From assembly GCA_965224465.1 (NCBI GenBank), contig OZ245049.1, positions 2,460,001-2,492,000 on the forward strand: a DNA stretch of 32,000 nucleotides. The letters are read 5' to 3'. Below are positions 9,307 through 22,261 of the stretch, piece after piece (position 1 is the stretch's first letter; the number at the start of each line of letters is the position of its first letter). The notes beneath the pieces were generated by a model. The model saw only the letters and a program-made list of their open reading frames with translations. It searched no databases and was not told the DNA's origin. Source of the DNA: Flavobacteriaceae bacterium (lineage in GTDB: Bacteria > Bacteroidota > Bacteroidia > Flavobacteriales > Flavobacteriaceae). The translations under genes were made by a program, and so were the position numbers.

Positions 9307-10818
9307 ATGACGATCAGACACTCAAACCAACGATTAATCTATTTATTATCACCCTTATTTTTATTCATAAACTGCGAAAAAGACGAACTCATATTTGAGC
9401 ACAAACTAACAACCACTATAAGTCCAAAAGAAGGAGGAACAGTAACACCTTCTTCGGGAACTTACGAGGCAGATAACACGATAACACTTAAAGCAACTCC
9501 CTCTAAACATTATACTTTTAAGAACTGGAGTGGCAGTGCATCTGGTTCTAAAAATTCCATTTCAATAACACTAAACACAAACAAAAATATTGATGTAATC
9601 TTTGTAAAAAAAGACACTGATAACGATGGTGTCACAGATGATATTGATACATGCCCAAACACTCCCCCTGGAGAAGAGGTAACCAAGTATGGCTGTGCTA
9701 CTTCACAAACAGACACAGACAAAGATGGTGTTATGGACTCGCTAGACAGATGCCCAAACACACCAGAAAAAGAAAAGGCAAACAGCAAAGGATGTTCTAG
9801 TTCACAACTAGATTCTGACGGAGACGGAGTCGCAGACAACATTGATGATTGTCCAAATACCACAAAAGGCATCCCTGTAGATAAAAACGGTTGTACTAGT
9901 AAACAAAAAATACATATACCTGACGTTAATTTTGAGAAAAGGCTAATCGCTTTAGGCTATGACGATGTTTTGGACAACTATGTGTTTTACAAGAACATTA
10001 AAGAGGTATTGTATTTAGATGTATCCGGATTAAATATTAGCAATTTAACAGGCATAGAAGCCTTTGAAAACTTGACAATTTTAAACTGTAAGAAAAACAA
10101 ACTTACCCAACTAAATCTAACTAAAAACATAGCCCTAAAAGAATTATACACACGCAAAAATCAACTCAAAAACCTAAACATAAGTAACAACTCTGAGTTA
10201 GTAAAACTATACTGTTCCAATAATAAATTAGCAAAATTGGATGTAAGTAGCAATACAAAATTGACTCAAATAATGTGTAACAATAACCGATTAACACGCT
10301 TACATTTAAGAAGTAACACAGAATTAAAAGAGTTAATATGTGATTCTAACAAACTCCCCAGTTTAGATTTGAGTAACTGTAATAAATTGGTACGGATTTG
10401 GTGTGGATTTAACCAACTCGAACAATTAAACATACGTAAAAACACACAGCTACGGTATTTAATTTGCGCTAACAATAAAATTACAAGTTTGGATGTAAAA
10501 AGCAATCTTCAATTGTCTGAATTTGCTTGTGGAAACAACCTAATTACCGATCTGAACCTCGTCAACAATACACTCTTATCAGAATTTGCATGTGGACAAA
10601 ATCGAATTAAAAAGTTAGACATACGTAACAACAAACAGTTAAAGCAATTAAGTTGCGGTAAAAACCAACTCACTCGTTTAGATTTAAGTAAGAATCGTCG
10701 ATTAACAGACTTGTTTTGTTCTTACAATAAATTATTTTGTATAAAAGTGGCTCCAAACCACAATTACAGTTCATGGATTAAAGATACTGAGACTATATTT
10801 TCTCTGAATTGTAATTAA
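9307..10818 (+). CDS. Surface lipoprotein with an InlB-B-repeat-like domain, three thrombospondin type-3 Ca-binding repeats and about 11 leucine-rich repeats
   Basis: The lipobox is LFINC. GGTVTPSSGTYEADNTITLKATPSKHYTFKNWSG resembles a Listeria-Bacteroides repeat. DTDNDGVTDDIDTCPNTP, DTDKDGVMDSLDRCPNTP and DSDGDGVADNIDDCPNTT are TSP3 repeats. About 11 units of 21 aa follow the pattern LxxLxCxxNxLxxLDLxxNxx. Confidence 0.8.
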   Translation: MTIRHSNQRLIYLLSPLFLFINCEKDELIFEHKLTTTISPKEGGTVTPSSGTYEADNTITLKATPSKHYTFKNWSGSASGSKNSISITLNTNKNIDVIFVKKDTDNDGVTDDIDTCPNTPPGEEVTKYGCATSQTDTDKDGVMDSLDRCPNTPEKEKANSKGCSSSQLDSDGDGVADNIDDCPNTTKGIPVDKNGCTSKQKIHIPDVNFEKRLIALGYDDVLDNYVFYKNIKEVLYLDVSGLNISNLTGIEAFENLTILNCKKNKLTQLNLTKNIALKELYTRKNQLKNLNISNNSELVKLYCSNNKLAKLDVSSNTKLTQIMCNNNRLTRLHLRSNTELKELICDSNKLPSLDLSNCNKLVRIWCGFNQLEQLNIRKNTQLRYLICANNKITSLDVKSNLQLSEFACGNNLITDLNLVNNTLLSEFACGQNRIKKLDIRNNKQLKQLSCGKNQLTRLDLSKNRRLTDLFCSYNKLFCIKVAPNHNYSSWIKDTETIFSLNCN

Positions 10819-11424: not shown

Positions 11425-11907
11425 ATGCCAGAAAGATCCGTAGCAACAGTAGGCAGCATGCATGTGTGTCCAATGTGTTCAGGAACTGTTCCTCATGTAG
11501 GAGGGACTATTATTCAAGGAGAGAGCAATGTTTTAGTAAATGGTAATCCCGTTGCAACTATGGGGAGTATATGTACTTGTATAGGTGCTATCGGCACAGT
11601 TATACAAGGTTCGCCCACTGTTTTTGTTAATGGTAAGCCTATTGCTTGTGTTGGTGATATGACCCAGCACGGAGGGATAATTACCTCAGGCTCTCCGAAT
11701 GTTTTTATAGGTAGCTCGCCGGAAACCCCTACAAAAACAAATAACCTTCAAGAGATAGCGTTTCCTGAAATCTCCTTAGTTAATAGGATACAAGCAGTGG
11801 TTACAGGTAATAATGATGCATTAAAAGAAGCAGCACAGAATATGGAGAAAATAAAAAATGAGGCTGATAAAAATGGTTTTTTAAACGCTATAGATTTTAG
11901 TTTTTAA
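11425..11907 (+). CDS. PAAR domain protein (spike-tip protein of a contractile injection system) with a C-terminal extension of about 60 aa
   Basis: The sequence VGSMHVCPMCSGTVPHVGGTIIQGESNVLVNGNPVATMGSICTC...GSPTVFVNGKPIACVGDMTQHGGIITSGSPNVFIG shows three PAAR-type repeats with the classic GDxxxHGGxIxxGSxxVxI ending. The stop codon is 2 nt before the next start. Confidence 0.85.
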   Translation: MPERSVATVGSMHVCPMCSGTVPHVGGTIIQGESNVLVNGNPVATMGSICTCIGAIGTVIQGSPTVFVNGKPIACVGDMTQHGGIITSGSPNVFIGSSPETPTKTNNLQEIAFPEISLVNRIQAVVTGNNDALKEAAQNMEKIKNEADKNGFLNAIDFSF

Positions 11908-11909
11908 CG

Positions 11910-14900
11910 ATGAAAGAAATTACACATCCTGAAAAAGGAAAAAAGGTAGGCGCTAAAGTTAGTTCTACAATTTTCGGCACATACCCAATAGGAAAATTTA
12001 ACACTTGGCACGGAGGCACACACTTAGAGAGTATGTCTGAATTAGTAGCCATTGCAGACGGTAGAATAATAGCCTATCAAATTACAGACAATTACGAATC
12101 CGTAGCTTTTGAAGGGAAAGACCAAGTGTATTCAAAATGCTTTGTACTAATACAGCACGACTACGTAATTAAAAAGACAGAGGACGATACTAAAGAAGGT
12201 AAACCTATTCGGTTTTATTCTTTTTATCAACATCTAATGCCTTTATCTAAAATAAAAAAAACAAATAAATTCCCTTACTTTTTCTGTGATAAAAAGCACG
12301 TTATCAAAGCTAAAGAACAGGTAAAGGGTGCTAAAATGTACAGGTTTATAAAGGGTAAAAAAACCGAAAAAACATTTATCCCTAATGGCACAACCATTAA
12401 GTTAAACAAAACGGATAAAGTCACAAAAAATAAACATTCCTATACTAGAGTAACTTCTGTTGATGGTATTGCTCTTACAAATAAACACTATATAAGTGAA
12501 AGTTTTATTGGTACAGATCTCATTAAAAAATATAGTTATGTACGTACAGAATATTATACAGACCCTAATAATGATACCAAAGGAGGGCGTATTCGTGAAA
12601 AGGCAAGTGGTACATCTAAAATTGTAAATCTAATCCCCTACGGAAAAGTGGTTGCTATAGATATGTCTACAAAAGATAAATCTTGGATAAAATTAGCCGA
12701 TGGTAGCGGGTATACTTTCAAAAAAAGTTTAGAATATAAAAGTGTATTAAATAATAAAAAAATCACAAAAGATAAAGTTATAGGTTGTGATATCCCTGTA
12801 AAAGCAAACCAAACCATTGGACATGCAGGAAAAAACGGCACTTTAGGATTCGAAAATTACAGAAACTGTCATTTTGAAATTTTTACGGATGCAAGTGATA
12901 GCGACCTAAAATATTTTATAAATAATAAAGCAAAAAACAGTTTTAAAACGCCTCGCTTTTTTGAAATAGAAAACGGAGCTAAGTTAAAAGCTAATATTGT
13001 TAAATCGCTTGATATCAGCGCTAATACCCCTATAAAAGTACTCAAGGTAAAAGATTGTTCGATAAAAGTAGAAATAATTGAAATTATGGCTACCATTGCG
13101 TATTCTGATGTAATTGATAATAATGACAAAGCGAGTAGTTACAACCTAAAAGCGGATACTTTTGACACGGTTAATACCGCTTTTAATAATACATTAAAAG
13201 TAACAGATAAACTCTATTATATAGAGCGTTGCGATGAAAGCGGTAAAAAAATATCTAATAAAGAAAACGACCAACGTATAAAGGATAAACTTGCCCAATA
13301 CAGAAATGTAAAGTTTAACCCTAAACATATAAAACAACTATTTTGGGTAAAGGAAACCGATATTGACGTATGTACAGCCGGTGAAAAAGGGAAAATTACA
13401 ACTGCTTTAACCCAAGTGTATATTTATGAGCCTAAAGATGAAACCGAAGATTTAACCATAAACGAAGCATTGCTTATAGAAAATAAAGGATTAAAAACCT
13501 ATACCAATAAAAGCACTAAAGAAAAATGGTATGCTATTACATGTAGCTATATAGAAAACAATAAATTGGTTAGTAAAAAAGGATGGATAAGTGAAAATAA
13601 CAGTAAGTTTACTGCAAAAAACCCACATAATTGGAAAGAGTTTGGTTTTGAAATTATAGATGCAGGAAAAGATTATGTATATGAGGTAGAAGGCTATAAT
13701 AGAGCAGAAAACAGTGGTGATTTTATTAACAAAATGTGGGAATTAATAGATACCGACGGCAACAAACGTATTAATAGAGTGGAGATAATTAATGCATTTT
13801 CAGATAGTAAAAAACTAAATAAAATAGCTAAATTTATCTGCAAGCACAAGAGTGAATGGTCGTACACTATTGATAAAATAAAAGAAGAAGCCGAGCAGTT
13901 TTATAAAATAGGAATAGACGAAGCTACAGGTATAAAAAAAGATAAATTAACCGAAAAAAAAGATAAACTTATTGATGTGTTTGTATCTAAATTAGAAAAT
14001 TTATTGTGTTGGAAAGAGATACAAAATGCCAACTATACACCACCTGTAATAAAACAGAAAACGAAAACAAAAGATACGTTTAGGTTTTTCCCTAAAGATT
14101 TTCAAGAAATTATTGATGATAAAGAACCGCAAAATTTATTTATAGAAGAAATGATGCAAATTATGGATGAAAAGAAGAAAGAAGAAGAAAAACCAAAACG
14201 TGTAGTGCCTAAAGGTGATGTGTTTCATTATTTTCATCCTATTGCTTTTTTACAGCATATGAAGTTGATTACTGCAACAAATGTTATTTATATTTATTCT
14301 GATGGCACAATTAGTAAATTAGATTTAAAAGGGCTTAACGAAATAACTTATGTCTATGTAAGTTCTAATGGTAAAGAATATAAAATTTGCACTTGTGAAT
14401 TATTAGAAATTGATGAAAGGTTAAAAGGAGTTGCACATGATCAAGCAACAGCTCATGCTGTTAAATCAGGATATGATGCTGGTAATATTGTGAGTTACTC
14501 TCATGCTTCCTCACGTAAAAAATATACATATCCCGATGGGACTATAAGAACTTACGGGAAATATGATGGAGAATTTAGACGAGTTGTTTATAATAAAGGA
14601 GCAAGAAAAACACACATAGTTAAACTTCCTAATGGATTAAATACAAAAGTAAATAATAAATCTGTGAAATTTGCATTTACATCAACAGCAAGAACATATT
14701 GTGGGCCTGAACATTTTGCTTGTTTTATAGGAGCTTTAACAGAAGTAGGTTATGCTGATATTGTTTCAGGAGGAATGTGTGAAGAGGACGGAACATGCTT
14801 TCCTAGTATATCGCACAATAATGGTCAGAGTGTTGATACTAGTTATTTAGATGATGATATTAGAGAACAAAACTTTATAAATGCTATGAATAAATTTGGA

Positions 14901-15011
14901 TTTGATGGTCAGCTTAGAGGTTATGCAAAGAAGAAATTTGATCATACGACTGCTAAATCTCATCACAATTCGCACCTGCATTCAGGGGTGTTAAAACCAA
15001 AATATAAATAG
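11910..15011 (+). CDS. Large polymorphic effector: split LytM/M23-like domain with an SH3b-like insertion, an unknown central region with an EF-hand-like loop, a K/E-rich linker, and a C-terminal LAS-type (HxxGxxxD...HxH) putative peptidoglycan peptidase toxin domain
   Basis: 1033 aa with no signal peptide. The M23-like blocks are WHGGTHLE, VAIADGRIIAY, FYSFYQHL and, about 190 aa later, VKANQTIGHAGKNG and NCHFEIF. GGRIREKASGTSKIVNLIPYGKVVAIDMSTKDKSWIKLADGSGY is SH3b-like. DTDGNKRINRVE is an EF-hand-like loop (13749-13784). The linker is DEKKKEEEKPKR. The C-terminal motifs are SHNNGQSVD (14811-14837) and HLH (14973-14981). Confidence 0.7.
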   Translation: MKEITHPEKGKKVGAKVSSTIFGTYPIGKFNTWHGGTHLESMSELVAIADGRIIAYQITDNYESVAFEGKDQVYSKCFVLIQHDYVIKKTEDDTKEGKPIRFYSFYQHLMPLSKIKKTNKFPYFFCDKKHVIKAKEQVKGAKMYRFIKGKKTEKTFIPNGTTIKLNKTDKVTKNKHSYTRVTSVDGIALTNKHYISESFIGTDLIKKYSYVRTEYYTDPNNDTKGGRIREKASGTSKIVNLIPYGKVVAIDMSTKDKSWIKLADGSGYTFKKSLEYKSVLNNKKITKDKVIGCDIPVKANQTIGHAGKNGTLGFENYRNCHFEIFTDASDSDLKYFINNKAKNSFKTPRFFEIENGAKLKANIVKSLDISANTPIKVLKVKDCSIKVEIIEIMATIAYSDVIDNNDKASSYNLKADTFDTVNTAFNNTLKVTDKLYYIERCDESGKKISNKENDQRIKDKLAQYRNVKFNPKHIKQLFWVKETDIDVCTAGEKGKITTALTQVYIYEPKDETEDLTINEALLIENKGLKTYTNKSTKEKWYAITCSYIENNKLVSKKGWISENNSKFTAKNPHNWKEFGFEIIDAGKDYVYEVEGYNRAENSGDFINKMWELIDTDGNKRINRVEIINAFSDSKKLNKIAKFICKHKSEWSYTIDKIKEEAEQFYKIGIDEATGIKKDKLTEKKDKLIDVFVSKLENLLCWKEIQNANYTPPVIKQKTKTKDTFRFFPKDFQEIIDDKEPQNLFIEEMMQIMDEKKKEEEKPKRVVPKGDVFHYFHPIAFLQHMKLITATNVIYIYSDGTISKLDLKGLNEITYVYVSSNGKEYKICTCELLEIDERLKGVAHDQATAHAVKSGYDAGNIVSYSHASSRKKYTYPDGTIRTYGKYDGEFRRVVYNKGARKTHIVKLPNGLNTKVNNKSVKFAFTSTARTYCGPEHFACFIGALTEVGYADIVSGGMCEEDGTCFPSISHNNGQSVDTSYLDDDIREQNFINAMNKFGFDGQLRGYAKKKFDHTTAKSHHNSHLHSGVLKPKYK

Positions 15012-15013
15012 AA

Positions 15014-15763
15014 ATGTATAAATTAATACAAATATTTTTTGCACTAGGGTTATTGACTAGTTGTCTTGATTCTAAAAATCACAAAGAAAAATTAAAAGAT
15101 AATAATTTAGCAGAAATAAAAGTAGAATTAACAGATAGCACCTCGTTAAGAGTAAAACAATTATCTAATTTCAACTTAAGTCAGTTATCATTAGGAAATG
15201 ATAAGATTACTGATAAAGAGTTTAGAGGCAAAAATAGTTTTTACATTAAAAAAGGAACAGATGTAGAATTAAATAATGAATTTATTTACTCTTCAAAAGG
15301 TGAAATTTTAAAAGATTATTTTCATAACTTTTATAAACCGACAGCTTTATCATCAGTTGAAGAAGATAAATATCCTTTATATGATGATAAAGATTATATT
15401 CAAAAAGTAGGTATTAAATCTTCAGGACTAGAAAATATTATAAAAAATAAAGATGGAGTATACTTATGTGTGTTTTTTGTAAATTTTAATTATGATAAAG
15501 AATATGAGTCTTTTATTAAACCTATCAGGTATTTAGTTTCTTTTGATGAAAATTTAAATATTTTGAATGAATTCACTCTTAGTTTTTTTTATGAAACAGA
15601 AACAAAGAGTTTCATAAAATTATTTTATTTAGATGAAAACTTAAATATTTACACTAATTATTACAGGAACAAAGAGGATAAAGACGGAAATATAAAGGAG
15701 ACCTTTTCAGACTTATATAGGTATACCGTATTGTCTAATGGTACAATTTCAGAGAAGAAATAA
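15014..15763 (+). CDS. Lipoprotein, candidate cognate immunity protein for the 1033-aa effector
   Basis: 249 aa with the lipobox LLTSC. It starts 2 nt after the effector stop. There is no recognisable enzymatic motif. Confidence 0.55.
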   Translation: MYKLIQIFFALGLLTSCLDSKNHKEKLKDNNLAEIKVELTDSTSLRVKQLSNFNLSQLSLGNDKITDKEFRGKNSFYIKKGTDVELNNEFIYSSKGEILKDYFHNFYKPTALSSVEEDKYPLYDDKDYIQKVGIKSSGLENIIKNKDGVYLCVFFVNFNYDKEYESFIKPIRYLVSFDENLNILNEFTLSFFYETETKSFIKLFYLDENLNIYTNYYRNKEDKDGNIKETFSDLYRYTVLSNGTISEKK

Positions 15764-16331
15764 ACCTTACGATTATACACTTCATGAGCATAGAGCTCCA
15801 ACTTTTGGGTATAGAAGAGGCACACCTAGTATAAGGCTACATGCTGCAAGAGATTTATATTATGATGCTGAAGAACCAATTTATGCAATAGCAGATGGTA
15901 CTACAAAAAGAGTTTATGAATTTTATCTCGACACTTATGCTATTGAAGTTGAACATAATTACGAGCACGTCAAAGGACATAAATTGTATGTCCGTTATGG
16001 AGAAGTAAGTAAGAATAATATTTTAGTAAAAGTCGGAGAAGAAGTAAAACAAGGAGACCAAATAGCCGAAATAGGTTTATTATATAGTAAGAAAAAAGAT
16101 AAGTATATTATTCAACCATACCCTGATAAAAGAGGCATGTTGCATTTAGAAATGTACACAGGTGAAGCAAAAGGAAAATTAACTGACAAAACAGTAAAGT
16201 ATACAGATATGCTTTATGCAAAATCAGACAAATACCACAAAGGACGTTCTTTTCAAAGGCGAAAAGATTTATTTGACCCATTACCTTTGTTAAAAATTAT
16301 GTATAACAATTCTAAATCTGATTTTAAATGA
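15738..16331 (+). CDS. Small M23/LytM-like protein without a signal peptide (candidate second effector)
   Basis: 197 aa. LHAARDLY (HxxxD), IYAIADGTT, YAIEVEH, VKVGEEVKQGDQIAEIG and MLHLEMY follow M23 block order. It overlaps the upstream ORF by 26 nt and the downstream ORF by 4 nt (ATGA). Confidence 0.6.
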   Translation: MVQFQRRNKPYDYTLHEHRAPTFGYRRGTPSIRLHAARDLYYDAEEPIYAIADGTTKRVYEFYLDTYAIEVEHNYEHVKGHKLYVRYGEVSKNNILVKVGEEVKQGDQIAEIGLLYSKKKDKYIIQPYPDKRGMLHLEMYTGEAKGKLTDKTVKYTDMLYAKSDKYHKGRSFQRRKDLFDPLPLLKIMYNNSKSDFK

Positions 16332-16891
16332 GAAATATAAAATATTTTTTAGTACTAGTAGTATCCCTTTTTTTTAGTTTGAATTCTTGTATAGAGAAAA
16401 AAACTAATGTTTCTAAATTAACAAATGATACAAAGGCTAATAAAACACCCAAAAAGGAAATAGTAAAGAAAAATAATCCTTTTAAATATATATACAATGT
16501 AGATTTGGTAGGAATGGAAGCTTCTGAAAAAATTAAAGACACTAAGCCTTATGAAAAATATTCTGTTGACTTTACAGCTGCTTGCTATTCTAGTAATCTA
16601 TTGAAAATAAGAATAAACAATGAGATTGTATCAATCTCAAACTATAACGATTCGAGAATTGAACAATCATTTCATATTAGTGATACAAAAATCCAAAATG
16701 ATAGTTTAATAATTGAATCAAATTCTCCAAATTATTTTAAAATAATAATTGTAAAAGTAAAAAATGCTCAGGTTTACTCTTTAGAGTATAAAGGTAATTT
16801 AGAAATAGATGTAAAAATGAGTAAATTTATTTCAAGAGAAACTGACCTTTTTAAATTTGGAGGTATCGATTGTGATGATTTTGGAGGATAA
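16328..16891 (+). CDS. Lipoprotein, candidate immunity protein for the small M23-like protein
   Basis: 187 aa with the lipobox SLNSC. Its start overlaps the stop of the M23-like gene. Confidence 0.5.
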   Translation: MRNIKYFLVLVVSLFFSLNSCIEKKTNVSKLTNDTKANKTPKKEIVKKNNPFKYIYNVDLVGMEASEKIKDTKPYEKYSVDFTAACYSSNLLKIRINNEIVSISNYNDSRIEQSFHISDTKIQNDSLIIESNSPNYFKIIIVKVKNAQVYSLEYKGNLEIDVKMSKFISRETDLFKFGGIDCDDFGG

Positions 16892-16899
16892 GAGCTAGA

Positions 16900-17518
16900 T
16901 TGTGAACAAGATAAAAAAGTAAAGCCACAGTTTAAAAAGCTGTGATATTATGGTTTGTAAATTAAATTTGTTTTTATGAATAACGCTCAATTAAGTAAAT
17001 TATTTAATCCCGATGTTACGGTCTTACTGGACAGGGTAAAAGTGACTGATAAAGATATTAATGTGCATTTACTTTATGCATTGTGTAATGCTGTTAAATG
17101 TTCAATTTCAATAGAAGAGTTTAACCCTTCTATTTATATTGAAGATGTTAATAATCAAATTGCATTTAACAATCAACTAAACATAGAGGCTCCAGAAAGT
17201 ATTAAAGCATCTTTTATAACTACATTTAGGGTAGATTTTATCTATGATGATAATTTAAACAATCATGTATACTGTTTTTTTAAAACGCAACCTTATATCA
17301 CCAATAACGATTGCCCTGTTGAAATCGTTAATTTCAATAAATCCTTATTAGAATTAACACCAAACGATTGCTTACGGTATGTAAATAGTAAATTAAAAGA
17401 ACTCTATCCTAACTTATGGGACGATACATTAAACATTTCTATAAATATAACATTGCATCACTACCAAGCAGCAAAAAACAAGTGGAAAATAATAACACCA
17501 ATATCTGATTAAAAATAA
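16900..17518 (+). repeat. 619-bp direct repeat, copy 1 (contains the 178-aa ORF and 76 bp of its upstream region)
   Basis: Aligns base for base with 21398-22016 at a constant offset of 4498 nt. Only a few substitutions are visible. Confidence 0.9.
16976..17512 (+). CDS. Hypothetical cytoplasmic 178-aa protein, copy 1 of the repeated gene
   Basis: Intact ORF with no signal peptide and no motif I recognise. The paralog at 21474-22010 differs at 4 of 178 residues. Confidence 0.6.
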   Translation: MNNAQLSKLFNPDVTVLLDRVKVTDKDINVHLLYALCNAVKCSISIEEFNPSIYIEDVNNQIAFNNQLNIEAPESIKASFITTFRVDFIYDDNLNNHVYCFFKTQPYITNNDCPVEIVNFNKSLLELTPNDCLRYVNSKLKELYPNLWDDTLNISINITLHHYQAAKNKWKIITPISD

Positions 17519-17532
17519 TATTAAGAAGTATT

Positions 17533-17666
17533 TCAACAAATTATATAGGAAAGCTTTAGATATATACTTTAATAAAAAGGGTATACGAACAAGGAAGACC
17601 TATGGTGTTGAAAAACACATTCAAATGTGGACTTCTAAATAGTCGGATTTATTAGTTGAATTTAAG
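17533..17666 (+). repeat. 134-bp junction repeat, copy 1
   Basis: The stretch TCAACAAATTATATAG...TTATTAGTTGAATTTAAG recurs at 18754-18888 with scattered substitutions and one 1-nt indel. Confidence 0.85.
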
Positions 17667-17746
17667 CATGTCTAAATTCTATGATTTTAAAATATACACT
17701 AAAGACATACCTCAAAGTAAAAGATCTAACTCTTAATAAAGATAAA

Positions 17747-18643
17747 ATGAAACCTTATTATTTAATTATATTAATTTTCTGTTCATGTAAAGAAAAGTCA
17801 GAAAATAAAATTAACGAAAGTCATACAATAATAACTACTCTAGAGGTGCATGAAGAAACCTCTTCTATAGTGATTCCTAAAAGATCTCAAGAAAAAATTG
17901 GTTTAATAAATGATACTGATGGTTATACGAACGCACGTAAAGAACCTTCATCATCTTCTGAAATTTTATTTAAAATATTAGAAGATGAATATTTTATGTA
18001 TACTTCTATAAAAGAATCAAATTGGTCTGAAATACAAACTCTTGATAATAAGGTCGCTTATGTACATAATAGTAGAATAAAAAAAGTAAATCCAAATAAT
18101 GTGATTACTTTTTTTAGTGAATATTATGATGAGGATGAAGAAAAAGACAAGCTTATAAAAAATATTATAACAATAAAATCACTGGATGAATCAAAAGCTT
18201 TTTCTATAAAGGAATTTCCATATTCTAAATTAAAGATTGTTAGTATATCCAATGATACTCTAATTTTATTAAGTGATGACAAAAAAATATCTATTGAAGT
18301 TATAGCAGGTCTTTTTGAAAAAGAGAAGCATTCAATTGAATACAATGAAAATAATTACGTCAACAAAATTGATTCGAAAAATATTTATGGAAATGACCAA
18401 GTACCAGTTAGAGAAATTAAGCAAATAATAATTCAGAAGGATGACATTAAATTTGAGTTAGACACAAAAGTTTTTAGTAATTTATATGAACCAAATTTTG
18501 AACATCTTAATGTTTATATAAAAGGAAATAATCAATTAATTATGTCTATGACAAATGGACATGGAGCAATAAATTCTTATAAATCAATTTTAATATTTGA
18601 TAATTCAAATCTATTAAAACACATAACCTATATTCCTTTTTAA
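17747..18643 (+). CDS. Lipoprotein with an SH3-like N-terminal domain (start taken at the internal ATG that gives a lipoprotein signal peptide)
   Basis: MKPYYLIILIFCSCKEK provides the lipobox. GLINDTDGYTNARKEPSSSSEILFKILEDEYF...WSEIQTLDNKVAYVHNSRI is SH3b-like. The track ORF starts at 17681, but 17747 gives a canonical signal peptide. Confidence 0.55.
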   Translation: MKPYYLIILIFCSCKEKSENKINESHTIITTLEVHEETSSIVIPKRSQEKIGLINDTDGYTNARKEPSSSSEILFKILEDEYFMYTSIKESNWSEIQTLDNKVAYVHNSRIKKVNPNNVITFFSEYYDEDEEKDKLIKNIITIKSLDESKAFSIKEFPYSKLKIVSISNDTLILLSDDKKISIEVIAGLFEKEKHSIEYNENNYVNKIDSKNIYGNDQVPVREIKQIIIQKDDIKFELDTKVFSNLYEPNFEHLNVYIKGNNQLIMSMTNGHGAINSYKSILIFDNSNLLKHITYIPF

Positions 18644-18753
18644 GTTTAGTATGGAATCCAATGTTATTGAAAAAGTTATACATACTGTTTAAAAAAAACG
18701 CATCCTTATAATACCAATATCCAATTAAAAACAATTTAAATAACGATAGCATG

Positions 18754-18888
18754 TCAACAAATTATATAGCAAATCTTTAGATATACACTTTAACAAAAAT
18801 AGTATACGAACAAGGCAAACCTATGGTATTGAAAAAAGACATTCAAATGTTGACTTCTAAATAGTCGCATTTATTAGTTGAATTTAAG
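18754..18888 (+). repeat. 134-bp junction repeat, copy 2
   Basis: Homologous to 17533-17666. It lies immediately upstream of the orphan toxin module. Confidence 0.85.
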
Positions 18889-18932
18889 ATGGGAAATATG
18901 GAAGAAAAGAAGAAGAAAAACCAAAACGCGTA

Positions 18933-19808
18933 GTGCCTAAAGGTGATGTGTTTCATTATTTTCATCCTATTGCTTTTTTACAGCATATGAAGTTGATTAC
19001 TGTAACAAATGTTATTTATATTTATTCTGATGGGACAATTAGCAAATTAGATTTAAAAGGGCTTAGCGAAATAACTTATGTCTATGTAAGTTCTAATGGT
19101 AAAGAATATAAAATTTGCACTTGTGAATTATTAGAAATTGATGAAAGGTTAAAAGGAGTTGCACATGGGCAAAAAATAGCTCATACCATCGAGTCAGGTT
19201 ATGATTCTAGTAATATTGTTACTTATGCACATGCTTCTTCTCGAAAAAAATATACTTATCCAGATGGCACTATAAGAACATATGGTCCTTACGATGGAGG
19301 TTTCAGAAGAGTTGTTTATAAAAAAGGCGCAGAAAAAAAACGAATTATTAAAATGCCTAAAAAAATTGGTGTTAAAATTGATAATAATAAAGTAATTGCA
19401 TTTAAGTTTACAGGCACAGCAAGAACTTATTGTGACCCAGAAGTTTTCGCTGGATTTATAGGTGTCTTAGGTGAAACAGGATATCCATCTACAGATATAA
19501 TATCGACAGGTATGTGTGAAGAAGACGGAACATGCTTTCCTAGTATTACCCACAATAATGGGCAAAGTATAGATATTAAATACCTTAAGAAAAATGGTGG
19601 TATAACAAGTTACATGTACAATAAGGATTTTGATAAAGTTAGAATGCAAAAAATTGTTGATGGATTTGTTAAATTTAATTTTAAATATTTAGCGGCATGG
19701 AAAGATTCTGAAGGTAAGCTGATGACTAATACAAAGAAAGTATCTCATCACCATCATCATTTTCATGCAGGTAATTTAAATAAAACAAAAATAAGAAGAA
19801 ATGATTAA
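18933..19808 (+). CDS. Orphan C-terminal toxin module, paralog of effector residues 766-1033, with no ATG start (probably silent unless recombined)
   Basis: The first 235 nt are nearly identical to 14205-14439. After that the module diverges but keeps THNNGQSID and HHHHHFH (the HxxGxxxD and HxH motifs). The frame opens only after a TAA at 18885-18887. It has no in-frame ATG, and the first possible start is the GTG at 18933. Confidence 0.7.
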   Translation: MPKGDVFHYFHPIAFLQHMKLITVTNVIYIYSDGTISKLDLKGLSEITYVYVSSNGKEYKICTCELLEIDERLKGVAHGQKIAHTIESGYDSSNIVTYAHASSRKKYTYPDGTIRTYGPYDGGFRRVVYKKGAEKKRIIKMPKKIGVKIDNNKVIAFKFTGTARTYCDPEVFAGFIGVLGETGYPSTDIISTGMCEEDGTCFPSITHNNGQSIDIKYLKKNGGITSYMYNKDFDKVRMQKIVDGFVKFNFKYLAAWKDSEGKLMTNTKKVSHHHHHFHAGNLNKTKIRRND

Positions 19809-20475
19809 AATAATATTTAAATTTTTGATAGTGTTTTTTTTGATAAGTTCATGTAAGACGAAAAAAGAGGAACTTAAAAAATCAGCTCAAATTTCATCTA
19901 ATAATTACGAAAAAGATAAAGTACCTTATTTAAAACTTCCAATAGATTATTCTTTTGAAAGAAACAAAAAAAATATTAAAGGAGATGTATTTTATAATCA
20001 ACGAGTAAAAATAAACACAAAAATAAATAATAATTTCAGTTTTATTAGTGAAAAGAATAATCTAAATATTGAAAATGAAATATGTAAAAAGTATAAAGAA
20101 AAATGCAATTCATATTTTACAGAATTTGATTATTCTAAAACGTACAAAATTCAAAATGATTTTGATTTTGATCTTTATTTAATTACTTCCAAATTCAGTT
20201 ATTACTTAAATTTAATATCAATTAAAGACGATAAAGTCATAGATTTATTGAATGTTTATTTAAATTACGTTGATTATGAAGGTCAAGAATGTATCTATCG
20301 AAACTTCTCTGTTGACAAGGATCTTAATGTTTCTATTTTTAATTATATCTATTTTGAATCTACAGGAGAAGTTGAAGAAGACAATAATGAAGCTGATTCC
20401 ATAAACATATATCCACCTGCTACTTTAAAACAAGAATTGTATACATTAACAAAAGAAGGATTATTCAGCAGATGA
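19801..20475 (+). CDS. Lipoprotein, candidate immunity protein for the orphan toxin module
   Basis: 224 aa with the lipobox LISSC. Its start overlaps the orphan toxin stop by 8 nt. Confidence 0.55.
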   Translation: MIKIIFKFLIVFFLISSCKTKKEELKKSAQISSNNYEKDKVPYLKLPIDYSFERNKKNIKGDVFYNQRVKINTKINNNFSFISEKNNLNIENEICKKYKEKCNSYFTEFDYSKTYKIQNDFDFDLYLITSKFSYYLNLISIKDDKVIDLLNVYLNYVDYEGQECIYRNFSVDKDLNVSIFNYIYFESTGEVEEDNNEADSINIYPPATLKQELYTLTKEGLFSR

Positions 20476-20490
20476 TTTTACGTAAAATGA

Positions 20491-20759
20491 TTAAAAGCAG
20501 AAGAAGAAGAAGAAGAAGAAGAAGAAGAAGACTGGGGTATACCGTCAGTAAATAATAATTTAAAACAGGTATGACTCATGGTTTTGGTTGGAAAAGAGGA
20601 CACTTTGGATTAGAACCAGAAAAATTTAACAATGGAGGTTCAGGGGCGACAACTTGGGTTCATTTAGATGTTAGGGAATTTGGGAAAGTAAACCTTAATG
20701 AAAAATTATTCGTTAAAAAACAAAGCTTAATAATTGGAAAAAAACTAACAGAATATTAA
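20491..20759 (+). pseudogene. Degraded third orphan toxin remnant: poly-Glu linker, then a frameshifted fragment ending in a WVHLDVRE motif (M15A-like C-terminus)
   Basis: The linker frame (20491-20574) has no start codon and ends at the TGA at 20572-20574. The 62-aa ORF at 20571-20759 is in a different frame and reads GFGWKRGHFG...GGSGATTWVHLDVRE. That resembles the C-terminal fVHvDvR block of peptidase M15A/DUF882. The upstream HxxxxxxD block is missing. Confidence 0.4.
20500..20529 (+). repeat. (GAA)10 trinucleotide microsatellite
   Basis: Ten perfect GAA units counted in the sequence. They lie in an open frame reading LKA(E)10DWGIPSVNNNLKQV followed by a stop. Confidence 0.95.
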
Positions 20760-20763
20760 AACT

Positions 20764-21369
20764 ATGAAAATGAAAATTGTTTTATTATTTTTTGTCTTAA
20801 TTTTTGGAATATCTTGTAAAGACAAAAACAAAAATAACACATCAATAAAATTAATTACTAGCACTAATAGTCTCATTGAGAACGCTGTAACTGAGAAGTC
20901 AGGACAAAAAAACAATTGTTTAAAGAGTGATGTTAAACCTCTGAAATTGCCAATTGATGGAGGAGAAAACCTTATGTCTTTTACAATTGAAAATGATATA
21001 GAATTACAAGTGTTAAAATGTGATGTAAGTATAATAAAATCTAAATTATGCAATACTGATTTTATAAGTTATTATTCTCTGCCTAATAAAAATGATTTAA
21101 ATCCAATAATTATAGCAGATGAATATGGAGATAATAATAATAGTTACACTTTAGTTATTCATAAAGAGGATAAAATAACCGATTTTGTCCTACTATATAA
21201 TTCTTGGATTGAAATGTCAGAAAACCCAAAAAAAGAAATTACAGATTTTAAAATATCTAAGGAATATGAAATAATTATTTCAAAACAAGAATATAAAAAT
21301 AATATCCAAACAAAACAAGAATCAATTAATTACCAAATTGATAAAAACGGGAAACTATTAATTCAATAG
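20764..21369 (+). CDS. Lipoprotein, candidate orphan immunity protein
   Basis: 201 aa with the lipobox FGISC. It shares the LKLPID motif and a C-terminal Y-x-[IL]-x-K-x-G-x-L type ending with the 19801-20475 lipoprotein. Confidence 0.5.
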   Translation: MKMKIVLLFFVLIFGISCKDKNKNNTSIKLITSTNSLIENAVTEKSGQKNNCLKSDVKPLKLPIDGGENLMSFTIENDIELQVLKCDVSIIKSKLCNTDFISYYSLPNKNDLNPIIIADEYGDNNNSYTLVIHKEDKITDFVLLYNSWIEMSENPKKEITDFKISKEYEIIISKQEYKNNIQTKQESINYQIDKNGKLLIQ

Positions 21370-21397
21370 TCACCTCCAGCTGTCGCAATCGTCTCGC

Positions 21398-22016
21398 TTG
21401 TGAACAAGATAAAAAAGTAAAGCCACAGTTTAAAAAGCTGTGATATTATGGTTTGTAAATTAAATTTGTTTTTATGAATAACGCTCAATTAAGTAAATTA
21501 TTTAATCCCGATGTTACGGTCTTACTGGACAGGGTAAAAGTGACTGATAAAGATATTAATGTGCATTTACTTTATGCATTGTGTAATGCTGTTAAATGTT
21601 CAATTTCAATAGAAGAGTTTAACCCTTCTATTTATATTGAAGATGTTAATAATCAAATTGCATTTAACAATCAACTAAACATAGAGGCTCCAGAAAGTAT
21701 AAAAGCATCTTTTACAACTACATTTAGGGTAGATTTTATCTATGATGATAATTTAAACAATCATGTATACTGTTTTTTTAAAACGCAACCTTATAACACC
21801 AATAACGATTGCCCTGTTGAAATCGTTAATTTTAATAAATCCTTATTAGAATTAACACCAAACGATTGCTTACGGTATGTAAATAGTAAATTAAAAGAAC
21901 TCTATCCTAGCTTATGGGACGATACATTAAATATTTCTATAAATATAACATTGCATCACTACCAAGCAGCAAAAAACAAGTGGAAAATAATAACACCAAT
22001 GTCTGATTAAAAATAA
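21398..22016 (+). repeat. 619-bp direct repeat, copy 2
   Basis: Matches 16900-17518 at a constant offset of 4498 nt. Confidence 0.9.
21474..22010 (+). CDS. Hypothetical cytoplasmic 178-aa protein, copy 2 of the repeated gene
   Basis: Intact ORF. It differs from copy 1 by I81T, I108N, N146S and I176M. Confidence 0.6.
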   Translation: MNNAQLSKLFNPDVTVLLDRVKVTDKDINVHLLYALCNAVKCSISIEEFNPSIYIEDVNNQIAFNNQLNIEAPESIKASFTTTFRVDFIYDDNLNNHVYCFFKTQPYNTNNDCPVEIVNFNKSLLELTPNDCLRYVNSKLKELYPSLWDDTLNISINITLHHYQAAKNKWKIITPMSD

Positions 22017-22134
22017 GCTAAATTCAATAGTAACCTCCCGCTGTCGCAAGCGTCTCGCTTGAGAACAAGATAAAGAAACGAAGCCTCAGTTTAAAAAGCT
22101 GTGATATTATGGTTTGTAAATTAAATTTGGCTTT

Positions 22135-22245
22135 ATGAATAACACTCAATTAAGTAAATTATTTAATCCCGATGTTACGGTATTACTGGACAAGGTAAAA
22201 GTGTCTGATAAAGACATCAATGTGCATTTACTTTATAGGTTATAG
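22135..22245 (+). pseudogene. Truncated third copy of the repeated 178-aa gene (36 codons)
   Basis: MNNTQLSKLFNPDVTVLLDKVKVSDKDINVHLLY is followed by RL and a stop. Homology to copies 1 and 2 starts in the upstream region near 22021 and ends abruptly at 22236, 26 nt from the next gene. Confidence 0.8.
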
Positions 22246-22261
22246 GACTATAATAACACTA

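What the first reader, a model, noticed from the sequence alone, without database searches (positions are those of the whole stretch)
14205..15011. C-terminal toxin domain carries LAS-type zinc peptidase motifs and may define an undescribed toxin family
Both paralogs conserve C-x-E-E-D-G-T-C-F-P-S-I-[ST]-H-N-N-G-Q-S-[VI]-D, which is H-x2-G-x3-D, that is H-x6-D. Both also conserve a terminal H-x-H (SHLHSG in one, HHFHAG in the other). That is the metal-ligand pattern of the LAS group: lysostaphin-type, D-Ala-D-Ala carboxypeptidase/M15 and hedgehog-type enzymes. The conserved N-terminal half of the domain (FHYFHPIAFLQHMK...YKICTCELLEIDERLKGVAH) matches nothing I recognise. Lipoprotein immunity candidates fit a periplasmic target.
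Basis: partly seen in the sequence, partly recalled or inferred. Interest (0 to 1): 0.65.

Follow-up and report, generated by a model that had tools for sequence, protein, structure and literature searches.

The report
Uncatalogued cell-wall-cutting T6SS toxin domain
The flagged stretch is the toxic tip of a bacterial "harpoon" (type VI secretion) protein. It most likely works as a zinc enzyme that cuts a rival's cell wall, and it belongs to a widespread family that no curated database yet lists, though the kind of weapon is already well known.

Summary
Window 14205-15011 encodes residues 766-1033 of a 1033-aa protein that follows a PAAR gene. A 71%-identical orphan copy lies at 18933-19808.

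- **Motifs.** The motif pair alone occurs in 16.5% of shuffles. However, R928, H969, D976, H1019, H1022 and H1024 are invariant or nearly so in 139 diverse homologues.
- **Family.** An exhaustive profile search finds 440 clusters. The domain is almost always C-terminal and is fused to at least 8 unrelated N-terminal regions. It occurs in Flavobacteriia and in Gilliamella.
- **Databases.** No Pfam, NCBIfam or PDB sequence match was found.
- **Fold.** A confident AlphaFold model has as its best structural matches only LAS enzymes: Hedgehog-N, VldE, LdcB, VanXYc and the Streptomyces DD-peptidase. All these matches have weak E-values. hhalign places the HxNGxSxD motif on the VanY zinc motif (P about 1e-4).
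- **Context.** Homologues sit beside Hcp, VgrG or PAAR genes. Every downstream gene found (15 of 17 loci, counting the window) encodes an exported protein. Toxin and immunity subtypes co-vary between genomes. The same N-terminal scaffold carries a muramidase or a YkuD-like tip in Cellulophaga relatives.

Verdict: a type VI-delivered, periplasm-acting, LAS-type metallopeptidase toxin, probably cutting peptidoglycan. It is a new, uncatalogued family of a known kind of weapon. The first 23 flagged residues are the scaffold's swap junction, not toxin.

The parts
11425..11907 (+). PAAR spike-tip protein (160 aa). Its gene ends 2 nt before the effector gene starts.
   Evidence: Pfam PAAR_motif, E 1.8e-29. 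NCBIfam T6SS_PAAR_dom, E 2.9e-11 but 43.4 bits against a curated cut-off of 124, so below threshold. Cellulophaga relatives have the order VgrG-PAAR-effector.
11910..14222 (+). N-terminal delivery scaffold of the 1033-aa effector (residues 1-771).
   Evidence: About 29% identical (E 2e-84 and 2e-80) to the N-terminal ~780 aa of the C. baltica 985-aa and Cellulophaga sp. L1A9 970-aa effectors. Those carry a Muramidase tip and a faint YkuD tip respectively. Only weak SH3_3 (E 0.0033) and M23 (E 0.41) signals were found.
14223..14273 (+). Junction motif FHYFHPIAFLQHMKLIT (residues 772-788), the point where tips are swapped.
   Evidence: Homology to the Cellulophaga effectors runs to about this motif in one (to residue 802) and becomes weak and gapped after it in the other. 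It is identical in the orphan copy, where DNA homology starts 27 nt upstream of the GTG at 18933. pLDDT is below 50 for CTD residues 1-23.
14274..14678 (+). Beta-rich subdomain of the toxin (residues 789-923).
   Evidence: The AF2 model is all beta-strand here with pLDDT 84-97. Most family members have it, but a minority match only the catalytic half. No informative fold or family match.
14679..15011 (+). LAS-like alpha/beta catalytic subdomain (residues 924-1033 plus the stop codon). Proposed active-site residues: R928 (14691-14693), H969 (14814-14816), D976 (14835-14837), H1019 (14964-14966), H1022 (14973-14975), H1024 (14979-14981).
   Evidence: These residues are invariant in 133-139 of 139 homologues. 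Foldseek top hits are Hedgehog-N, VldE, LdcB, VanXYc and 1lbu. hhalign against VanY gives P 9.5e-5.
15014..15763 (+). Cognate immunity lipoprotein, type A (249 aa; MYKLIQIFFALGLLTSC...).
   Evidence: It starts 2 nt after the toxin's stop codon and has a signal peptide with a lipobox Cys. It is 91% identical to the gene downstream of the 93%-identical toxin copy in Cellulophaga sp. L1A9. It is 29-31% identical to the partners in Flavivirga and Aquimarina.
18906..19808 (+). Orphan toxin cassette, type B (ORF 18933-19808, 291 aa). It has no delivery domain and only a GTG start.
   Evidence: 71% identical in protein to residues 766-1033. The first 300 nt are 94% identical in DNA and divergence increases towards the 3' end. 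All catalytic residues are retained.
19801..20475 (+). Cognate immunity lipoprotein, type B (224 aa). It overlaps the orphan gene by 8 nt.
   Evidence: Lipoprotein signal MIKIIFKFLIVFFLISSC. It is 73% identical to the gene that overlaps the type-B orphan in C. baltica by the same 8 nt. It is only ~20% identical to type A.

Best explanation
Residues ~789-1033 are the interchangeable toxic tip of a PAAR-associated type VI secretion effector.

**Proposed mechanism.** The N-terminal ~770 residues load the protein onto the VgrG/PAAR spike. After the spike is fired into a neighbouring Gram-negative cell, the tip acts in the periplasm as a Zn2+-dependent peptidase of the LAS type. I propose the following roles:
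- H969 and D976 (the H-x6-D motif) and H1024 hold the metal.
- H1022, probably together with H1019, activates the water.
- R928 stabilises the substrate or the transition state.
- The preceding beta-rich module helps to bind the substrate.

The most likely substrate is the peptide part of peptidoglycan, and cleaving it weakens the wall. The producer protects itself with the lipoprotein encoded immediately downstream. The orphan cassette with its own lipoprotein is a spare tip that can replace the resident one by recombination through the shared junction sequence.

**Shown here:** the gene arrangement, the family, residue conservation, T6SS linkage, export signals on the partner genes, toxin-immunity co-variation and tip swapping.

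**Inferred:** zinc binding, the role of each residue, the substrate and the bond that is cut.
For: 1. Residue conservation. R928, H969 and D976 are present in 139/139 homologues, H1019 and H1022 in 135/135, and H1024 in 133/135. These are also invariant or nearly invariant columns in the 48- and 52-54-sequence alignments.
2. Structure. The AF2 model has pLDDT 88.6 and pTM 0.85. It shows an alpha-beta-beta-alpha-beta-beta-beta unit, with D976 on one strand and H1022/H1024 on the last strand.
3. Fold search. The top 15 PDB hits for the full model are all Hedgehog-N domains (E from 0.045, probability up to 0.85). For the separately modelled catalytic half, 13 of the top 25 hits are LAS enzymes: VldE, LdcB, VanXYc and 1lbu.
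4. Profile comparison. hhalign of the family against a VanY alignment gives P 9.5e-5 and 1.5e-4. It places HxNGxSxD on HQNGxAxD and FGF on YGF.
5. T6SS linkage:
   - PAAR lies directly upstream in the window.
   - Homologues follow TssD inside T6SSiii clusters in Flavivirga and Tenacibaculum.
   - A homologue follows VgrG in Gilliamella.
   - Cellulophaga has VgrG-PAAR-effector islands.
6. Periplasmic target. In the 15 of 17 loci (counting the window) where a downstream ORF was found, every one has a lipoprotein or Sec signal peptide.
7. Cognate pairing. Toxin type A goes with immunity A (93% / 91% identity) and type B with immunity B (73% for the immunity protein) across genomes.
8. Swappable tip. 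The same scaffold carries a Muramidase or a YkuD-like tip in relatives, both peptidoglycan-directed enzymes. Some homologues carry LysM, or VanY and GH19 domains.
9. Polymorphic-toxin behaviour. The domain lies within 15 residues of the C-terminus in 136/139 homologues and is fused to at least 8 unrelated N-terminal groups.
Against: - No individual fold hit reaches a conventional threshold. Foldseek found no match at E <= 0.001, and hhalign probability is only 52-59%.
- Pfam M15, M23 and Hedgehog models do not match, even at E <= 10.
- HMM searches of PDB sequences return only noise.
- The catalytic half modelled alone is only moderately confident (pLDDT 73), and it is weakest around the metal loop.
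- I could not inspect model coordinates, so the clustering of the His and Asp residues in space is unverified.
- The acidic general base of VanX/VanY (E-x-x-H) and of Shh (E177) has no conserved counterpart. A histidine (H1019) sits nearby instead.
- Neither the substrate nor metal dependence has been tested.
Confidence: 0.68

Rival explanations
1. The fold and delivery are the same, but the toxin does not lyse the cell. It would be a carboxypeptidase-type editor that trims stem peptides (as LdcB, VanY or Tlde1-type enzymes do) and so starves the target of cross-linkable substrate, rather than an endopeptidase that cuts existing cross-links.
For: LdcB (an LD-carboxypeptidase), VanXYc and the Streptomyces DD-carboxypeptidase are among the structural hits. 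The profile match is to VanY. A sister effector on the same scaffold carries a faint YkuD-like tip.
Against: Nothing here discriminates between bond specificities. VldE, the best subdomain hit, is an endopeptidase as far as I know (one search gives only its name). Many LAS toxins and lysins are endopeptidases.
Confidence: 0.18
2. It is a LAS-like metallohydrolase that acts on a different periplasmic target. Candidates are the Braun lipoprotein-peptidoglycan link, an envelope protein or a lipid-linked precursor. The beta-rich module would provide the new specificity.
For: Exported immunity proteins show only that the target is periplasmic. The ~135-residue beta-rich module has no recognisable relative. 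The active site has four invariant histidines and lacks the usual Glu.
Against: All characterised bacterial LAS enzymes that I know of cut peptidoglycan peptides. Alternative tips on the same scaffold (Muramidase, YkuD-like) and co-occurring LysM and VanY domains point to the wall.
Confidence: 0.1
3. The motif resemblance is coincidental. The domain would be a non-peptidase, such as a His-rich metal-dependent nuclease (the HNxHLH motif recalls His-Me/HNH sites) or a non-catalytic binding module.
For: The motif pair arises in 16.5% of shuffles. There is no significant database match. All fold E-values are weak.
Against: A cytoplasmic nuclease would not be paired with exported immunity proteins at every one of the 15 loci where a partner gene was found. 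No nuclease or HNH fold appears among the hits. LAS enzymes dominate the top hits of two independent models. Six invariant polar residues argue for catalysis.
Confidence: 0.04

Closest known systems
MEROPS M15 / 'Hh/DD-peptidase' LAS enzymes: Streptomyces albus Zn DD-peptidase 1lbu, VanY/LdcB, VanX(Y), and the S. pneumoniae VldE C-terminal domain
   Same: - It has H-x6-D plus H-x-H, the pattern that defines DD-peptidases and the LAS arrangement (PMC6027127).
- The H-x-x-G-x-[AS]-x-D core aligns with the VanY motif.
- There is an invariant upstream Arg.
- These enzymes are the top structural hits for the catalytic half.
   Different: - No HMM-level similarity to these families.
- The last motif is H-x-x-H-x-H, not E-x-x-H (VanX/VanY).
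- There is a ~20-residue insertion between the FGF strand and the last strand, compared with VanY.
- There is an extra ~135-residue beta-rich module.
- It is used as a secreted interbacterial toxin with a dedicated immunity lipoprotein.
Hedgehog N-terminal signalling domain (ShhN) and bacterial Hh-like domains
   Same: - It is the best Foldseek match for the full model (probability up to 0.85, TM about 0.41 on the target).
- The alignment to ShhN is ungapped over 51 columns. It pairs EDG...S..H..G.[SA]VD in both sequences, and the H-x-H falls on the last strand.
- Bacterial Hh domains are also C-terminal parts of larger proteins (PMC6027127).
   Different: - The ShhN alignment is not significant (P 0.075, probability 0.8%).
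- No counterpart of E177 was found.
- The Ca2+-site residues were not examined here.
- There is no Pfam HH_signal hit.
Predicted T6SS peptidoglycan-peptidase effectors with LAS domains, e.g. Acinetobacter baumannii Tpe14AB (LysM + Peptidase_M15_3 + M23) and Tpe4/18/24AB (M23), and B. cenocepacia BCAL1166 (M23 + SH3_3)
   Same: These are spike-associated cargo effectors with a metallopeptidase domain aimed at the wall. They often carry LysM or SH3 modules and have an adjacent immunity gene (PMC6833914; PMC6612558).
   Different: Those effectors are recognised by the standard Pfam M23 and M15 models, whereas this domain is not. This family spans Bacteroidota T6SSiii and gammaproteobacterial T6SSi, and it behaves as a recombining C-terminal cassette with orphan copies.
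Polymorphic toxin systems (Rhs/CdiA-type C-terminal toxin cassettes with orphan toxin-immunity modules; Zhang et al. 2012, PMC3482391)
   Same: - A variable C-terminal toxin follows a conserved junction.
- The immunity gene lies immediately downstream.
- Promoter-less orphan tip-immunity pairs keep 5' homology for recombination.
   Different: The scaffold is neither Rhs nor CdiA. It is a PAAR-linked ~770-aa region specific to Flavobacteriaceae. Its junction motif FHPIAF..(H/Q)MKL is not one I recognise. A word search of that paper found no LAS, M15 or VanY toxin class.

Membership tests
LAS arrangement (lysostaphin / D-Ala-D-Ala carboxypeptidase / Sonic hedgehog) | First two metal ligands in an H-x(6)-D motif (M15/Hh) or an H-x(3)-D motif (M23) | tested here: met
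   H969-x6-D976 is present in both window copies and in 139/139 homologues. The definition is taken from PMC6027127.
LAS arrangement (lysostaphin / D-Ala-D-Ala carboxypeptidase / Sonic hedgehog) | H-x-H near the C-terminus, on a beta-strand, with the second His as the third ligand | tested here: met
   H1022-L-H1024 is present in 133-135 of 135 homologues. It lies on the final strand, residues 257-263 of the model. Its ligand role is inferred.
LAS arrangement (lysostaphin / D-Ala-D-Ala carboxypeptidase / Sonic hedgehog) | Shared core fold: an antiparallel sheet with flanking helices that brings the three ligands together | tested here: inconclusive
   The top Foldseek hits are only LAS proteins, for two separate models. 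However E is 0.045-2 and TM is 0.25-0.48. Model coordinates could not be inspected.
LAS arrangement (lysostaphin / D-Ala-D-Ala carboxypeptidase / Sonic hedgehog) | Bound Zn2+ and peptide-bond hydrolysis | not testable with these tools
   Needs metal analysis and enzymology.
Pfam M15 families (VanY PF02557, Peptidase_M15_3, Peptidase_M15_4, VanX) | A match to the family HMM at or near the gathering score | tested here: not met
   None of 9 members matched at E <= 10, and none of 52 matched at E <= 0.001 apart from P0042's separate VanY domains.
Pfam M15 families (VanY PF02557, Peptidase_M15_3, Peptidase_M15_4, VanX) | Remote homology detectable by profile-profile comparison | tested here: inconclusive
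   hhalign against a 19-sequence VanY alignment gives P 9.5e-5 and 1.5e-4 with probability 52-59%. The match covers 38-43 columns over the zinc motif, the helix and the next strand.
Pfam M15 families (VanY PF02557, Peptidase_M15_3, Peptidase_M15_4, VanX) | Third ligand within E-x-x-H (VanX/VanY), with the Glu acting as general base | tested here: not met
   The motif here is H1019-x-x-H1022-x-H1024, and no conserved Glu is found at that position.
Hedgehog N-terminal domain (HH_signal) | Sequence-level homology and the E177 general base | tested here: not met
   There is no Pfam hit. hhalign against verified human ShhN gives P 0.075. The Glu is not conserved.
Peptidase M23 (lysostaphin type) | An H-x(3)-D motif and a match to PF01551 | tested here: not met
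   The toxin domain has H-x6-D and no M23 hit. By contrast, the neighbouring orphan at 15738-16331 does match M23 (E 2e-8).
T6SS cargo effector with cognate immunity (polymorphic toxin logic) | Genetic linkage to spike or tube genes (PAAR, VgrG, Hcp) in independent genomes | tested here: met
   Linkage to PAAR, to TssD inside T6SSiii clusters, to VgrG in Gilliamella, and to VgrG-PAAR in Cellulophaga.
T6SS cargo effector with cognate immunity (polymorphic toxin logic) | A C-terminal toxin on varied N-terminal carriers, with the tip replaced on one and the same carrier | tested here: met
   The domain is terminal in 136/139 homologues. There are at least 8 N-terminal groups. The same scaffold carries a Muramidase or a YkuD-like tip in relatives.
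T6SS cargo effector with cognate immunity (polymorphic toxin logic) | An adjacent immunity gene that co-varies with the toxin subtype and is localised in the target compartment | tested here: met
   The downstream gene encodes an exported protein at all 15 loci where one was found. Type A and type B pairs are conserved between genomes.
T6SS cargo effector with cognate immunity (polymorphic toxin logic) | T6SS-dependent secretion, toxicity, and neutralisation by the immunity protein | not testable with these tools
   Needs competition and co-expression assays.

The most novel reading that the evidence does not exclude
This family is not just another M15-like lysin. On this reading it is the toxin-world lineage closest to the Hedgehog N-terminal domain. 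Its catalytic site would be unusual, built from four invariant histidines plus one aspartate with no Glu base, and it would be coupled to a new beta-rich recognition module. If so, the Hh/DD-peptidase domain, like HINT, would have circulated as an interbacterial toxin cassette before animals acquired it.
Probability: 0.08. Interest if true: 0.7.

Novelty: new variant of a known kind. Interest (0 to 1): 0.45.

Why it matters
- It gives a working function to a widespread but unannotated toxin domain: 440 clusters at 50% identity, all labelled 'hypothetical' or only 'LysM domain-containing'. No Pfam or NCBIfam model detects it.
- The domain is shared between the poorly studied Bacteroidota T6SSiii of marine and fish-associated Flavobacteriia (Tenacibaculum, Cellulophaga, Aquimarina, Chryseobacterium) and the T6SSi of the bee-gut symbiont Gilliamella.
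- It also defines a recombination junction (FHPIAF..MKL) and a PAAR-linked scaffold. These could be used to find further tips in Flavobacteriaceae.
- If the enzyme cuts a defined peptidoglycan bond, it adds a new lysin scaffold, and with its lipoprotein partners a new inhibitor scaffold.
- The concept itself, a T6SS-delivered wall-degrading metallopeptidase with periplasmic immunity, is well established. A specialist would find this useful rather than surprising.

Tried and rejected
- **Sequence databases.** Pfam at E <= 1-10 on the window copies and 9 homologues, and at E <= 0.001 on 52 full-length homologues, gave nothing for the domain. NCBIfam also gave nothing.
- **PDB sequence searches.** I searched with the single sequence, the 9-sequence profile and the 48-sequence catalytic profile. 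Only noise came back: thermonuclease, CPAP/SAS-4 G-box, McrB and a viral methyltransferase, at E 0.09-2. I rejected these because they are non-significant and inconsistent with one another.
- **Tcp10_C/G-box hit.** The weak hit (E 0.07) on 'KKYTYPDGTIRTYG' may reflect the beta-hairpin character of the N-terminal module, but it is not evidence of homology.
- **Foldseek against viral structures.** Uninformative. The beta-rich half pulled in glycoproteins with TM about 0.1.
- **Catalytic half modelled alone.** This gave a poorer model (pLDDT 73) than the full domain.
- **ShhN as a single-sequence hhalign target.** Suggestive in register but not significant.
- **P0042's C-terminal VanY domain against PDB.** No hit.
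- **The search for related loci with the 48-sequence alignment.** Failed because no stretch was conserved enough. It was rerun with A1.
- **Exact look-up of the window's own effector.** It is not on record.
- **P0008 context.** Uninformative.
- **Effector N-terminus as a homologue of the neighbouring M23 orphan.** BLAST does not support this. Only a weak M23 HMM signal is present (E 0.41).
- **Nuclease (HNH-like) reading of HNxHLH.** Rejected because the immunity proteins are exported.


Full report
**1. What is at the coordinates**

The window is a low-GC, Flavobacteriaceae-like chromosome segment. Housekeeping genes (panC, panD, glmS, ATP synthase and others) flank an island of even lower GC. 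The island runs from about 11.2 to 22 kb and has 25-31% GC, against 32-38% outside it.

The island opens with a PAAR gene at 11425-11907 (Pfam PAAR_motif, E 1.8e-29). Two nucleotides later comes a 1033-aa ORF at 11910-15011. The finding covers residues 766-1033 of this ORF.

A second copy of this part alone lies at 18933-19808. It has only a GTG start and is 71% identical over 250 aa.

**2. Is it more than chance?**

The bare pattern, H-x6-D followed by H-x-H, turns up in 16.5% of shuffles of this sequence. It proves nothing on its own. Conservation does.

- A word-seeded search found only 7, then 18, relatives.
- An exhaustive HMMER scan of 1.84 billion cluster representatives found 440 at E <= 1e-3 and 284 at E <= 1e-10.
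- I aligned 139 complete catalytic halves to a family HMM. Using protein numbering:
  - R928, G955, S966, H969, G972 and D976 are present in 139/139.
  - H1019 and H1022 are present in 135/135.
  - H1024 is present in 133/135.
  - N971, Y979 and P965 are present in 135 or more.
- The family signature is R-x-[YF] ... A-x-F-I-G-A-L ... D-G-[TS]-x-[FY]-P-S-x-x-H-x-N-G-x-[SA]-x-D-x-x-Y ... F-G-F ... H-x-x-H-L-H-[SCA]-G.

**3. Domain limits**

The N-terminal ~785 residues of the window protein are ~29% identical (E 2e-84 and 2e-80) to two Cellulophaga effectors:
- the 985-aa effector of Cellulophaga baltica, whose tip is a Pfam Muramidase domain;
- the 970-aa effector of Cellulophaga sp. L1A9, whose tip gives a faint YkuD match.

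Both follow VgrG and PAAR genes. Convincing similarity runs to the motif FHPIAF(L/V/I)(Q/E)(H/Q)MKL. After it, one alignment ends at residue 802 and the other continues only weakly with many gaps.

So 'FHYFHPIAFLQHMKLIT' (14223-14273) is the scaffold's junction, not part of the toxin. Three other observations agree:
- The AlphaFold model is disordered for the first 23 residues.
- Family-wide homology starts at about profile position 12-23.
- DNA identity between the resident and orphan copies starts 27 nt upstream of the orphan's GTG. It is 94% over the first 300 nt and then decays.

This is the classic layout of a recombining orphan cassette.

**4. Structure and fold**

With a 20-sequence alignment, AlphaFold2 gives pLDDT 88.6 and pTM 0.85. 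The model has two parts:
- a beta-rich module, CTD residues ~24-158;
- an alpha/beta unit, with helix 168-181, strands 187-190 and 210-213, helix 218-230, and strands 233-239, 248-251 and 257-263.

D976 (CTD 211) lies on a strand. H1022 and H1024 (CTD 257 and 259) lie on the last strand, where alternate residues face the same side.

Fold and profile searches gave these results:
- Foldseek against the PDB with the full model: the first 15 hits are all Hedgehog N-terminal domains. E starts at 0.045, probability reaches 0.85, and TM is about 0.41 on the target.
- Foldseek with the catalytic half modelled on its own (pLDDT 73): the top hits are the S. pneumoniae VldE C-terminal domain, LdcB, VanXYc and the Streptomyces Zn DD-peptidase 1lbu. 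These account for 13 of the top 25 hits, with E 0.3-3.
- None of these hits is significant alone. However, two separate models retrieve only LAS-fold proteins as their coherent hits.
- hhalign of the family against a 19-sequence VanY alignment gives P 9.5e-5 (probability 59%). Using all 139 sequences gives P 1.5e-4. It places H-x-N-G-x-S-x-D on VanY's H-Q-N-G-x-A-x-D, and F-G-F on Y-G-F.
- Against human ShhN, whose sequence I verified against the PDB, the alignment runs ungapped for 51 columns. It pairs EEDGTCFPSISHNNGQSVD with DEDGHHSEESLHYEGRAVD. With a single target sequence it is not significant.
- Pfam, NCBIfam and HMM searches of PDB sequences give nothing.

I conclude that this is a LAS-arrangement domain that is too divergent for the current family models. 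H-x6-D plus H-x-H is the DD-peptidase/Hedgehog version of that arrangement (PMC6027127). The extra invariant H1019, and the absence of a conserved Glu, recall the two non-ligand histidines of lysostaphin-type sites. That last point rests on my own knowledge and was not tested.

**5. It is a T6SS toxin that acts in the periplasm**

Linkage to T6SS genes is seen in several independent genomes:
- In Flavivirga aquatica, a LysM-bearing homologue follows tssD inside a T6SSiii cluster with TssC, gp25, ClpV, TssN, TssO and TssR.
- In Tenacibaculum, a homologue follows tssD next to tssR.
- In Aquimarina, an orphan copy sits in an effector island with Tle1-like, DUF4280 and M23 genes and a VgrG.
- In Gilliamella, a gammaproteobacterium, the domain ends a 1181-aa protein directly after a VgrG gene.

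The domain lies within 15 residues of the C-terminus in 136/139 proteins. It is fused to at least 8 unrelated N-terminal groups.

At 15 of the 17 loci examined (counting the window) an ORF follows the toxin gene, and every one begins with an export signal. In Flavobacteriia these are lipoprotein signals, and in Gilliamella they are Sec signals of the VHS|NE or VYA|TE type.

The partner proteins form a family and co-vary with toxin subtype:
- The window's 249-aa lipoprotein is 91% identical to the partner of the 93%-identical toxin copy in Cellulophaga sp. L1A9.
- The lipoprotein paired with the orphan is 73% identical to the partner of the type-B copy in C. baltica, with the same 8-nt overlap.
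- The two types are only ~20% identical to each other.

Exported immunity proteins, alternative tips that are wall enzymes, and LysM, VanY and GH19 companions all point to the cell wall as the target.

**6. Mechanism proposed**

See Best explanation for the full statement.

Shown here: anatomy, conservation, linkage, export signals, co-variation and tip swapping.

Inferred:
- Zn2+ is held by H969, D976 and H1024.
- H1022, with or without H1019, acts as the catalytic residue.
- R928 acts as the stabiliser.
- The substrate is the peptidoglycan peptide.
- The downstream lipoprotein inhibits the toxin.
- The tip can be replaced by recombination at the junction.

The bond specificity (endopeptidase or carboxypeptidase) is open.

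**7. Comparison and novelty**

LAS-type wall peptidases are already known as predicted T6SS effectors. Examples are Acinetobacter Tpe14AB with LysM + Peptidase_M15_3 + M23, several M23 Tpe groups (PMC6833914), and B. cenocepacia BCAL1166. The kind is therefore known.

What is new is the family:
- it is invisible to curated models;
- it has its own beta-rich module and an H-x-x-H-x-H motif;
- it is spread over two phyla and two T6SS subtypes;
- its partners form a lipoprotein immunity family.

A word search of the 2012 polymorphic-toxin survey found no LAS, M15 or VanY toxin class. My other literature searches found no description of the family either. This is absence of evidence within an open-access library only.

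I rate it a new variant of a known kind, with interest 0.45.

Noticed in passing
window 15738-16331 and 16328-16891: The 197-aa ORF is a second orphan toxin tip of a different type. It matches Pfam Peptidase_M23 (E 2e-8) and is 52% identical to the C-terminal 190 aa of a 684-aa Aquimarina effector in a T6SS island. A lipoprotein gene follows it and overlaps it by 4 nt, and is presumably its immunity gene.
   Followed up: partly
window 17681-18643: This 320-aa lipoprotein has an SH3_3 domain. It is 35% identical to the gene directly downstream of the YkuD-like effector in Cellulophaga sp. L1A9. It is probably an orphan immunity gene against a toxin type that this genome does not carry here.
   Followed up: partly
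window 11910-12950 (effector residues 1-347): The delivery scaffold keeps the motifs WHGG[TI]H[LI]E and [CA]H[FV]E[IV]F in all three Cellulophaga-type effectors. It gives weak SH3_3 (E 0.0033) and Peptidase_M23 (E 0.41) signals. It may be a divergent LytM-like domain split by an SH3 insertion, with altered ligand residues.
   Followed up: partly
window 20500-20759 and 20764-21369: A (GAA)10 run at 20500-20529 is followed by a 62-aa ORF at 20571-20759. The ORF contains GGSGATTWVHLDVREFG, which from memory resembles the C-terminal GG...H-[VL]-D motif of Peptidase_M15_3. It has no Pfam hit. A lipoprotein follows (DUF4969, E 6e-5, below the gathering score). This is possibly the decayed remnant of a third LAS-type cassette.
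   Followed up: partly
window 16976-17512 and 21474-22010 (repeat 16895-17194 / 21393-21692; degenerate copy 22054-22353): Two 178-aa ORFs differ at only 4 residues. The DNA repeat that starts upstream of them and runs into their 5' ends is 99% identical over the 300 nt compared, and a third copy is 67% identical. They have no signal peptide and no family match. Their function is unknown, and they mark a duplicated module boundary in the island.
   Followed up: no
window 17527-17666 and 18748-18888: A ~140-nt intergenic repeat (88-95% identical) precedes both the SH3 lipoprotein gene and the orphan toxin cassette. It may be a module boundary or a regulatory element.
   Followed up: no
protein P0042 (1567 aa, from the representative library): One homologue carries this domain internally, at residues 595-855. 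It lies between two motif stretches of canonical VanY type (SNHQNGIAFD...EAWHWEY and SNHTAGNAVD...EEWHWDY), and Pfam VanY matched one member of that 52-protein set. It is apparently a multi-headed wall-hydrolase protein.
   Followed up: partly
L018 10001-10579 (Cellulophaga sp. L1A9, protein P0001): The 93%-identical orphan copy is truncated: it lacks the junction and roughly the first third of the beta-rich module. It has Tyr in place of the last histidine (HLYSG). Even so, its immunity gene is intact and 91% identical, and it is extended by an SH3_3 domain. The toxin appears to be decaying while immunity is retained.
   Followed up: partly
window 9307-10818: A 503-aa lipoprotein just upstream of the island contains Flg_new_2, thrombospondin type-3 and leucine-rich repeats. 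It appears unrelated to the toxin system.
   Followed up: no
protein P0011 (450 aa): In this homologue the toxin ORF runs on past HLHSG into a sequence that looks like a lipoprotein signal (MTLSLLAIFLVSCSKK...). Either toxin and immunity are fused, or a stop codon was missed in the assembly.
   Followed up: no
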